From NCBI RefSeq assembly GCF_001677475.2, contig NZ_CP015229.1: a stretch of 64,000 nt of DNA; one strand, 5' to 3'. Position numbers and translations under genes: made by a program. Below the pieces are notes generated by a model. It made no database searches, was not told the DNA's origin, and saw nothing but the letters and a program-made list of their open reading frames with translations. The first letter of the stretch is position 1. Every line of letters begins with the position of its first letter. This DNA comes from Escherichia coli (GTDB lineage: Bacteria; Pseudomonadota; Gammaproteobacteria; Enterobacterales; Enterobacteriaceae). Positions 39,108 to 42,493 of the stretch are shown here, piece by piece.

Positions 39108-40328
39108 TTAATCTTTCAGCTTGCGCATTACCAGCGTGGCGTTGGTGCCGCCGAAGCCGAAGCTGTTAGACATAACGGTGGTCAGTTCGCGATCGGTCGT
39201 TTCGGTCACGATGTTCAGACCCGCAGCCTGCTCGTCCAGCTCTTCAATGTTGATGCTCGGGGCGATAAAACCGTGTTCCAGCATCAGCAGAGAGTAGATA
39301 GCTTCCTGTACGCCAGCAGCGCCCAGTGAGTGACCGGTCATGGCTTTGGTTGCAGAAATCGCCGGGCTCTTATCGCCGAACACTTCACGGATAGCTGCCA
39401 GTTCTTTCACGTCGCCAACCGGAGTCGAAGTACCATGAGAGTTCAGGTAGTCGATTGGGGTATCAACACCGTGCATCGCCATCTTCATGCAGCGCACTGC
39501 ACCTTCGCCAGACGGAGCAACCATGTCTGCGCCATCAGAGGTTGCGCCGTAGCCAACGATTTCAGCATAGATGTGAGCACCACGCGCCAGCGCGTGTTCC
39601 AGCTCTTCAACCACTACCATACCGCCACCGCCAGCGATAACGAAACCGTCACGGTGAGCGTCGTAAGTACGGGAGGCTTTTTCCGGGGTGTCGTTGTATT
39701 TAGTAGACAGCGCACCCATCGCGTCGAATTCGCAAGCCATTTCCCAGCACAGCTCTTCACCGCCGCCAGCAAACACGATGTCCTGTTTGCCCAGTTGGAT
39801 CTGCTCTACTGCGTTACCGATACAGTGTGCGGAAGTCGCACACGCGGAGCTGATGGAATAGTTAACGCCATGAATTTTAAACGGCGTGGCGAGGCAGGCA
39901 GAAACGCCGGATGCCATCGCTTTGGTGACCACATACGGGCCAACCGCTTTCAGGCCGCGCGGGCCGCGCATTGCGTCAGCGCCGAATACCTGGAAACGCG
40001 GGGAACCGCCGCCGGAACCTGCAATCAGGCCAACGCGCGGGTTATTCTGGTAAGCTTCCGGAGAGAGGCCTGCATCTGCGATTGCCTGCTCCATAGAAAG
40101 GAATGCATAAATGGATGCGTCGCTCATAAAGCGCACAACTTTGCGGTCAATGAGGCCAGTGGTATCCAGTTTTACGTTGCCCCAGACGTGGCTACGCATG
40201 CCGGAATCCTTCAGCTCCTGAGAGAAAGTGATCCCTGAACGTCCTTCACGCAGAGATGCCAGGACTTCCTGCTGGTTATTACCGATGCTGGAAACAATGC
40301 CCAGGCCAGTAATCACTGCACGTTTCAT
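39108..40328 (-). CDS. fabB: 3-oxoacyl-ACP synthase I (KAS I)
   Basis: 406-aa ORF with KAS active-site region ([14 protein letters not shown]) and His-His motifs. Confidence 0.97.
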
Positions 40329-40375
40329 TCAATACCTCTGTAAGTCGCACATAGAGTAAGTTTCGAATGCACAAT

Positions 40376-40393
40376 AGCGTACACTTGTACGCC
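40376..40393. promoter_or_regulatory. Palindrome GCGTACA-ct-TGTACGC in the fabB promoter (FabR-type operator)
   Basis: Inverted repeat read directly about 50 bp upstream of fabB start; resembles the FabR/FadR-controlled region of fabB. Confidence 0.5.
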
Positions 40394-40420
40394 GAACAAG
40401 TCCGATCAGCCAATTAATAG

Positions 40421-42493
<2,073 letters not shown>

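What the first reader, a model, noticed from the sequence alone, without database searches (positions are those of the whole stretch)
40376..40393. GCGTACA-ct-TGTACGC palindrome in the fabB promoter
A near-perfect inverted repeat lies about 50 bp upstream of fabB on its coding strand, positioned like the operator for the unsaturated-fatty-acid repressor FabR.
Basis: partly seen in the sequence, partly recalled or inferred. Interest (0 to 1): 0.25.

Follow-up and report, generated by a model that had tools for sequence, protein, structure and literature searches.

The report
Known FabR operator in fabB promoter

Summary
GCGTACA-ct-TGTACGC is a perfect 7+7 inverted repeat at 40377-40392, and the 18-mer is at 40376-40393. 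It lies 48-65 nt upstream of the fabB ATG (fabB 39108..40328, minus strand) in an E. coli-type chromosome. A palindrome of this size is not rare in itself: the window holds 29. This particular sequence is unique in the window. Read on the fabB strand (GGCGTACAAGTGTACGCT) it is letter-for-letter the published FabR palindrome of E. coli fabB. The fabA promoter carries the same two-box layout, a FadR box followed by AGCGTACACGTGTTAGCT. In 46 of 46 Enterobacterales fabB loci, retrieved without reference to the site, the palindrome is kept with at most 2 of 14 mismatches. The FadR box sits exactly 17 nt upstream in 43 of 45. This block is the best-conserved part of the upstream region. Relative to the published RACE start site (37 bp before the ATG), the operator spans -28..-11. 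That fills the spacer between a weak -35 (TTGTTC) and a weak -10 (TATTGT). The most likely mechanism is that FabR occludes RNA polymerase and opposes activation by FadR bound next to it, with acyl-thioester ligands setting occupancy. Verdict: interpretation supported, already known, low interest.

The parts
40376..40393 (-). FabR operator, 18-mer GGCGTACAAGTGTACGCT on the fabB strand. Perfect 16-bp palindrome core at 40377-40392.
   Evidence: Identical to the published FabR palindrome of E. coli fabB (PMC4537474). Scores the weight-matrix maximum of 30.6 bits, against 11.1 for the next unrelated site in the window. Conserved in 46/46 fabB loci with FabB >=80% identical.
40395..40411 (-). FadR activator box GGCTGATCGGACTTGTT, abutting the FabR operator.
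   Evidence: The core CTGATCGGACTTGTT is the only exact match in the window. It is identical in the fabA promoter. It is exact in most Enterobacterales and starts 17 nt before the palindrome core in 43/45 loci. The exact 17-nt boundaries are from my own knowledge of FadR sites.
40394..40399 (-). Inferred -35 hexamer TTGTTC of the fabB promoter, lying inside the FadR box.
   Evidence: Inference: it lies 17 nt upstream of the inferred -10 hexamer, and its columns are >=95% conserved. Too weak for the consensus scanner.
40371..40376 (-). Inferred -10 hexamer TATTGT. Its first T is the last base of the FabR 18-mer.
   Evidence: It lies 5 nt upstream of the RACE start site (PMC7083825). T1, A2 and T6 are >=95% conserved while positions 3-4 vary, the pattern expected of a -10 element.
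40365..40365 (-). fabB transcription start, 37 bp upstream of the ATG (+/-1 nt).
   Evidence: Published RACE mapping in E. coli BW25113 (PMC7083825), transferred to the window. The intergenic region differs from K-12 at one base only.
40426..40440 (-). Published CpxR box GTAAGgctgcGCAAA (-112..-98 from the ATG).
   Evidence: Sequence and numbering match PMC7083825 Table 1. Only the GCAAATTT part is well conserved across Enterobacterales.
39108..40328 (-). fabB, beta-ketoacyl-ACP synthase I, the regulated gene.
   Evidence: ORF of 406 aa. RefSeq annotation under the match in 5,425 E. coli genomes.
40487..42493 (+). mnmC, the divergent neighbour. It shares the 158-bp intergenic region with fabB.
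   Evidence: The GTG start matches the MG1655 annotation.

Best explanation
The palindrome is the operator of FabR (YijC), the TetR-type repressor of unsaturated fatty acid synthesis, in the fabB promoter of an E. coli-type chromosome. A FabR dimer recognises the two symmetric half-sites GCGTACA / TGTACGC. The operator fills the 17-nt spacer between a weak -35 (TTGTTC) and a weak -10 (TATTGT) and overlaps the first base of the -10. Bound FabR should therefore block RNA polymerase from forming a productive complex. The activator FadR binds the box immediately upstream, which overlaps the -35, and compensates for the weak hexamers. According to the literature, unsaturated acyl-ACP or acyl-CoA strengthens FabR binding and saturated acyl-ACP weakens it, so fabB transcription follows the saturated/unsaturated balance of the acyl pool. 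Shown here: the sequence, its identity to the published site, its position, the fabA and yqfA counterparts, and its conservation. Taken from papers: the start site, FabR binding, ligand control, and FabB derepression in a fabR deletion. Inferred: the hexamer assignments and steric occlusion as the mode of repression.
For: Identity to the published site. The window 18-mer, read on the fabB strand, equals the sequence marked as the FabR palindrome in the E. coli fabB probe of PMC4537474. It also fits the quoted FabR motif AGCGTACACGTGTTCGCT (PMC4273635).

Counterparts elsewhere in the regulon. fabA of MG1655 has the same FadR box followed by the palindrome. A matrix built from fabB sites of other species gives the window site 30.6 bits, the maximum possible. 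The same matrix gives fabA 20.8 bits and the third reported target, yqfA/trhA, 14.0 bits, each the top hit in its region. The best unrelated site in the 64-kb window scores 11.1 bits.

Conservation. fabB loci were retrieved through an N-terminal codon pattern that does not include the site. All 46 with FabB >=80% identical keep the palindrome with <=2/14 mismatches, 58-79 nt from the ATG, whereas shuffled upstream regions give a best match of about 5.7 mismatches. The TACA/TGTA arm positions and the outermost G/C are invariant and the central dinucleotide varies freely, as expected of a dimer-binding site. The block -83..-41 is the best-conserved part of the upstream region. The 41-nt core shows no mismatch in the aligned part in 5,425 of 5,426 complete E. 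coli genomes.

Position. With the RACE start site at -37 (PMC7083825), the operator lies at -28..-11.

Function, from papers. FabR ChIP-chip peaks fall in the orthologous fabB-STM2379 intergenic region of Salmonella, and fabB is upregulated in the fabR mutant (PMC4804515). FabB rises about 4-fold in E. coli lacking fabR, and the C18:1-ACP/FabR complex represses fabB (PMC11525553).
Against: No binding experiment was or could be done on this DNA. The primary biochemical papers (Zhang 2002; Zhu 2009; Feng and Cronan 2011) are not in the held library, so FabR binding is cited second-hand. The -35 and -10 hexamers are my assignment: the consensus scanner finds no promoter here, and the -10 sits 1 nt closer to the reported start site than the canonical position. 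Papers disagree on whether ligand is needed for binding in vivo (as summarised in PMC4804515). The fabR gene lies outside the window, so its presence in this genome is assumed.
Confidence: 0.95

Rival explanations
1. The repeat is a chance palindrome with no function, one of many short inverted repeats in the window.
For: Perfect 7+7 inverted repeats are common: 29 in the window against 19.4 +/- 5.8 in shuffles.
Against: The exact sequence is unique in the window. It is conserved upstream of fabB in 46/46 Enterobacterales and in some Orbales and Colwelliaceae, while the flanking DNA diverges. It recurs at fabA and yqfA/trhA.
Confidence: 0.01
2. The repeat acts as a nucleic-acid hairpin, either an RNA stem-loop in a fabB or mnmC leader or a DNA cruciform, and not as a protein-binding site.
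For: The region can fold into a 6-7 bp stem at -8.4 and -10.5 kcal/mol.
Against: The folding energy is not exceptional: z = -1.96 and -1.47, with 8 and 20 of 200 shuffles folding as well. No Rfam family matches. The site lies upstream of the mapped fabB start, so it is not in the fabB mRNA. Across species, 10 of 18 distinct variants carry changes on one arm only, which break pairing (for example GCTTACA..TGTACGC), while the half-site cores stay invariant.
Confidence: 0.02
3. The palindrome is not a separate operator. On this reading it is part of one long composite site bound by FadR, or by another regulator such as CpxR.
For: It abuts the FadR box with an invariant 17-nt register in 43/45 species. 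The two boxes form one continuous conserved block.
Against: The palindrome does not resemble the FadR consensus. Rosenbergiella, Gilliamella/Orbaceae and Colwelliaceae keep the palindrome without the E. coli-type FadR box, so the two elements are separable. yqfA/trhA has the palindrome without that box. The CpxR footprint lies at -119..-94, well away from the site.
Confidence: 0.02

Closest known systems
FabR (YijC) operator of the E. coli K-12 fabB promoter
   Same: The 18-mer is identical. The whole 158-bp fabB-mnmC intergenic region differs from MG1655 at one base, 40413, which lies outside all the boxes.
   Different: Nothing of substance; this is the same element in another strain or a close relative.
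FabR site of the E. coli fabA promoter (AGCGTACACGTGTTAGCT)
   Same: The same FadR box, CTGATCGGACTTGTTC, sits directly upstream. The ACAnnTGT core and the GC/GCT ends are shared.
   Different: The fabA arms are less symmetric (5 of 7 positions complementary, against 7 of 7 at fabB) and score lower (20.8 against 30.6 bits). This fits the published view that FabR is the main regulator of fabB and FadR of fabA (PMC3896788).
FabR-type sites at yqfA/trhA (E. coli) and desA (Shewanella oneidensis)
   Same: Same palindromic motif class: AGCTAACAGGTGTTCACT lies 64-81 nt upstream of trhA, and AGCTTACAGCTGTACGCT is the desA site (PMC4273635).
   Different: These sites are more degenerate, have no adjacent E. 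coli-type FadR box, and control different genes.
DesT operator of Pseudomonas aeruginosa (DesT is a FabR homologue). This comparison rests on my own knowledge and was not tested here.
   Same: A TetR-family regulator whose DNA binding is modulated by the saturation state of the acyl-thioester pool, acting on a palindromic operator that controls unsaturated fatty acid genes.
   Different: Different target genes (desCB and fabAB) and a different operator sequence. No sequence comparison was made here.

Membership tests
FabR operator of the enterobacterial unsaturated fatty acid regulon | An 18-bp palindromic sequence matching the published FabR motif or site. | tested here: met
   The reverse complement of 40376-40393 equals the published fabB palindrome GGCGTACAAGTGTACGCT (PMC4537474). 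It fits the motif AGCGTACACGTGTTCGCT (PMC4273635). It scores the weight-matrix maximum.
FabR operator of the enterobacterial unsaturated fatty acid regulon | A related palindrome at the other regulon promoters (fabA, yqfA). | tested here: met
   fabA scores 20.8 bits and yqfA/trhA 14.0 bits. Each is the top hit in its region, using a matrix that contains no E. coli K-12 site. Alignment.
FabR operator of the enterobacterial unsaturated fatty acid regulon | It lies within the mapped fabB promoter, immediately downstream of the FadR box. | tested here: met
   The start site is at -37 from the ATG (PMC7083825), which places the site at -28..-11. The FadR box ends 1 nt before the 18-mer. My numbering was checked against the published CpxR box at -112..-98.
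FabR operator of the enterobacterial unsaturated fatty acid regulon | Conserved upstream of fabB orthologues (phylogenetic footprint). | tested here: met
   46/46 loci with FabB >=80% identical keep it with <=2/14 mismatches, against about 5.7 in shuffles. Conservation profile. The 41-nt core shows no mismatch in the aligned part in 5,425/5,426 E. coli genomes.
FabR operator of the enterobacterial unsaturated fatty acid regulon | Physically bound by FabR, with fabB derepressed when fabR is deleted. | not testable with these tools
   Literature only. ChIP-chip and transcriptomics in Salmonella (PMC4804515). About 4-fold more FabB in E. coli lacking fabR (PMC11525553). The primary EMSA papers are not held.
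FabR operator of the enterobacterial unsaturated fatty acid regulon | The fabR gene is present in the same genome. | not testable with these tools
   fabR maps far from fabB in E. coli (my own knowledge), and only this 64-kb window is available.
FadR binding site | Match to the FadR consensus (CTGRTCNGACNTGTT type). | tested here: not met
   The palindrome itself does not match. The exact match is the separate, adjacent box at 40395-40409.
Structured RNA element or hairpin | Exceptional folding energy, pairing kept by compensatory changes, or a match to a known family. | tested here: not met
   z = -1.96 and -1.47. No Rfam hit. One-arm changes break pairs in 10 of 18 variants. The site is upstream of the start site.

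The most novel reading that the evidence does not exclude
The FabR, FadR and CpxR sites all sit in a 158-bp region shared with the divergently transcribed tRNA-modification gene mnmC. They might therefore also modulate mnmC, which would couple membrane lipid state to tRNA wobble modification. The Salmonella ChIP-chip study lists the mnmC orthologue STM2379 as a formally possible FabR target for this reason. A candidate mnmC promoter (TTGCGC at 40427-40432 and TAAGAT at 40450-40455) overlaps the conserved GCAAATTT block. That candidate would place the FabR operator about 70-85 nt upstream of its start, too far for simple occlusion.
Probability: 0.07. Interest if true: 0.3.

Novelty: already known. 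Interest (0 to 1): 0.07.

Why it matters
FabR control of fabB is part of how E. coli sets the ratio of unsaturated to saturated fatty acids and speeds membrane adaptation after temperature shifts (PMC11525553). The site in this window is that known operator, so the finding adds nothing new. Its value is as a correct annotation of a regulatory element that RefSeq leaves unannotated ('none' under the match). It also shows the first-stage reader can recognise a real operator from sequence alone.

Tried and rejected
The consensus promoter and terminator scan of 40250-40560 found nothing. The fabB hexamers match only 3+4 of 12 positions, below the tool's threshold, which is consistent with an activator-dependent promoter and not with absence of a promoter.

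Counting generic palindromes showed the repeat is not statistically remarkable in itself, so I did not rely on that argument.

Four primary papers could not be read because they are not held: Feng and Cronan 2011, Zhu et al. 2009, McCue et al. 2001, and Feng and Cronan 2009. The Klebsiella FabR paper has no binding-site information.

The hairpin and RNA readings were tested and rejected.

A FadR-consensus scan of the window gives 26 hits with <=3 mismatches against 24 expected. Only the exact fabB box, and the boxes at the fadI and fadL promoters, are meaningful, and the latter only because of where they sit.

The gene is unambiguous fabB and those searches would not change the answer.

Full report
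**What is there.** The window around the finding is an E. coli-type chromosome. A 401-bp stretch across the site matches 5,425 of 5,426 complete E. coli genomes, the best at 99.8%, with fabB and mnmC annotated under the match. fabB occupies 39108..40328 on the minus strand. mnmC starts with GTG at 40487 on the plus strand, as in MG1655. The two genes diverge from a 158-bp intergenic region that differs from K-12 at a single base, 40413.

Positions 40376-40393 read AGCGTACACTTGTACGCC. The core 40377-40392 is a perfect 7+7 inverted repeat with a 2-nt centre. It lies 48-65 nt upstream of the fabB ATG.

**Is it more than chance?** As a bare palindrome it is not. The window holds 29 perfect 7+7 inverted repeats with 0-4 nt spacers, against 19.4 +/- 5.8 in shuffles. 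As a specific sequence it is. The 14-base pattern occurs once, and the only other matches have 3 mismatches, at the number expected by chance.

**What it is.** On the fabB strand the 18-mer is GGCGTACAAGTGTACGCT. This is exactly the sequence marked as the predicted FabR palindrome in a published E. coli fabB gel-shift probe, where it directly follows the FadR site (PMC4537474). It also fits the FabR motif AGCGTACACGTGTTCGCT quoted from Feng and Cronan 2011 (PMC4273635).

The MG1655 fabA promoter reads AACTGATCGGACTTGTTC-AGCGTACACGTGTTAGCT-AT. The window fabB promoter reads GGCTGATCGGACTTGTTC-GGCGTACAAGTGTACGCT-AT. Both have the same two-box layout.

**Unbiased conservation test.** I retrieved fabB loci from one genome per species, using a degenerate codon pattern for the FabB N-terminus. 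That pattern does not include the promoter (119 usable loci).

- All 46 loci whose FabB is >=80% identical to the window protein carry the palindrome with at most 2 of 14 mismatches, 58-79 nt from the ATG. They include Escherichia albertii, Citrobacter, Enterobacter, Serratia, Yersinia, Pectobacterium, Erwinia, Pantoea, Photorhabdus, Xenorhabdus, Morganella and Edwardsiella. Shuffled upstream regions give a best match of about 5.7 mismatches.
- The FadR box starts exactly 17 nt before the palindrome core in 43 of 45 loci.
- Among 18 distinct variants, the TACA/TGTA arm positions and the outermost G/C never change. The central dinucleotide takes six forms. Arm positions 2 and 3 vary, often on one arm only. 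This is the signature of a symmetric dimer-binding site and not of a base-paired stem.
- In an alignment of the 46 upstream regions, the block -83..-41 (FadR box, palindrome and the start of the -10) is the most conserved part.
- Within E. coli, the 41-nt core shows no mismatch in the aligned part in 5,425 genomes.

**Weight-matrix test.** A matrix built only from these other-species fabB sites gives the window site the maximum possible score, 30.6 bits. The next unrelated site in the window scores 11.1 bits. In MG1655 the same matrix ranks the fabA site first in its region (20.8 bits) and a site 64-81 nt upstream of yqfA/trhA first in its region (14.0 bits). yqfA/trhA is the third reported FabR target (PMC4804515).

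[quoted passage not shown] My numbering reproduces that paper's CpxR box at -112..-98. The elements then fall as follows relative to the start site.

| Element | Sequence | Position from start site | Window coordinates |
|---|---|---|---|
| FadR box | GGCTGATCGGACTTGTT | -46..-30 | 40395-40411 |
| -35 hexamer (inferred) | TTGTTC | -34..-29 | 40394-40399 |
| FabR 18-mer | GGCGTACAAGTGTACGCT | -28..-11 | 40376-40393 |
| -10 hexamer (inferred) | TATTGT | -11..-6 | 40371-40376 |

The hexamers are my inference. It is supported by the conservation of T, A and the final T of TATTGT while the middle positions vary. Both hexamers are weak, which explains why the consensus scanner found nothing and why an activator is needed.

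The operator therefore fills the spacer and touches the -10. Steric exclusion of RNA polymerase is the most likely mode of repression; this step is inferred.

The papers supply the rest. FadR activates and FabR represses fabA and fabB (PMC4537474). FabR binding is strengthened by unsaturated acyl-ACP and weakened by saturated acyl-ACP, and FabR is the dominant regulator of fabB (PMC3896788). FabB rises about 4-fold without fabR (PMC11525553). FabR ChIP signal lies in the orthologous Salmonella intergenic region (PMC4804515).

**Rivals.**

- Chance is excluded by the conservation.
- A hairpin is unlikely. The folding z-scores are -1.96 and -1.47. No Rfam family matches. The site is upstream of the start site. 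One-arm substitutions break pairing.
- A single composite FadR site is unlikely. Rosenbergiella, Gilliamella/Orbaceae and Colwelliaceae keep the palindrome without the E. coli-type FadR box. yqfA/trhA has the palindrome alone.

**Limits.** There is no binding experiment on this DNA. The primary biochemical papers were not available. fabR itself lies outside the window.

**Verdict.** This is the known FabR operator of fabB, so it is already known and of low interest. The most novel reading not excluded is that the shared intergenic sites also influence mnmC, which I consider unlikely.

Noticed in passing
window 55925-61558: The window also carries fadJ (55925..58069, minus), fadI (ORF 58069..59532, minus; this listed ORF is longer than the roughly 436-aa FadI I recall, so the true start is probably internal) and an ORF of FadL size (60212..61558, plus). 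FadR-consensus-like boxes sit at their promoters: 59410-59424 GTGGTCTGACCTGAT, 60094-60108 CTGGTCCGACCTATA and 60118-60132. Gene names are from size and K-12 map order, which is my own knowledge. So there are three FadR-controlled promoters in one window.
   Followed up: partly
window 40423-40440: Across 46 Enterobacterales, the block GCAAATTT (-102..-95 from the fabB ATG) is >=90% conserved. The 5' half GTAAG of the published CpxR box (-112..-108) is poorly conserved. On the plus strand the conserved block overlaps TTGCGC (40427-40432). Together with TAAGAT (40450-40455, 17-nt spacer), that could be the divergent mnmC promoter. No start-site data were checked.
   Followed up: partly
L013, L021, L053, L055 (Colwellia, Cognaticolwellia, Thalassotalea), about -110 to -70 from fabB: A FabR-type palindrome, AGTGTACAAGTGTACGCT, is directly followed by a FadR-like palindrome, CTGGACAGACCAG, in L021 and L053 (CTGAGCAGACCAG in L055; not seen in L013). 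The box order is the reverse of E. coli, which suggests a different logic, with both proteins possibly acting as repressors.
   Followed up: no
L006, L016, L023, L025, L031, L042, L091, L114 (Vibrio spp.), about -85 from fabB: Vibrio fabB upstream regions lack the full palindrome. They share a conserved GATTGTACG(G/A)nTTnnnGGGAAA block that contains only one FabR-like half-site. Grimontia hollisae (L039) keeps a full palindrome with 1 mismatch.
   Followed up: no
L004 (Pantoea sp. Brub, stink-bug symbiont); L034 and L062 (Rosenbergiella); L003, L085 and L120 (Orbaceae, Gilliamella): The reduced-genome symbiont has lost both the FabR and FadR boxes upstream of fabB. Rosenbergiella and the Orbales keep the FabR palindrome but have no E. 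coli-type FadR box.
   Followed up: no
window 40413: This is the only difference from MG1655 in the 158-bp fabB-mnmC intergenic region (A here, T in K-12). It lies 2 nt beyond the FadR box.
   Followed up: yes
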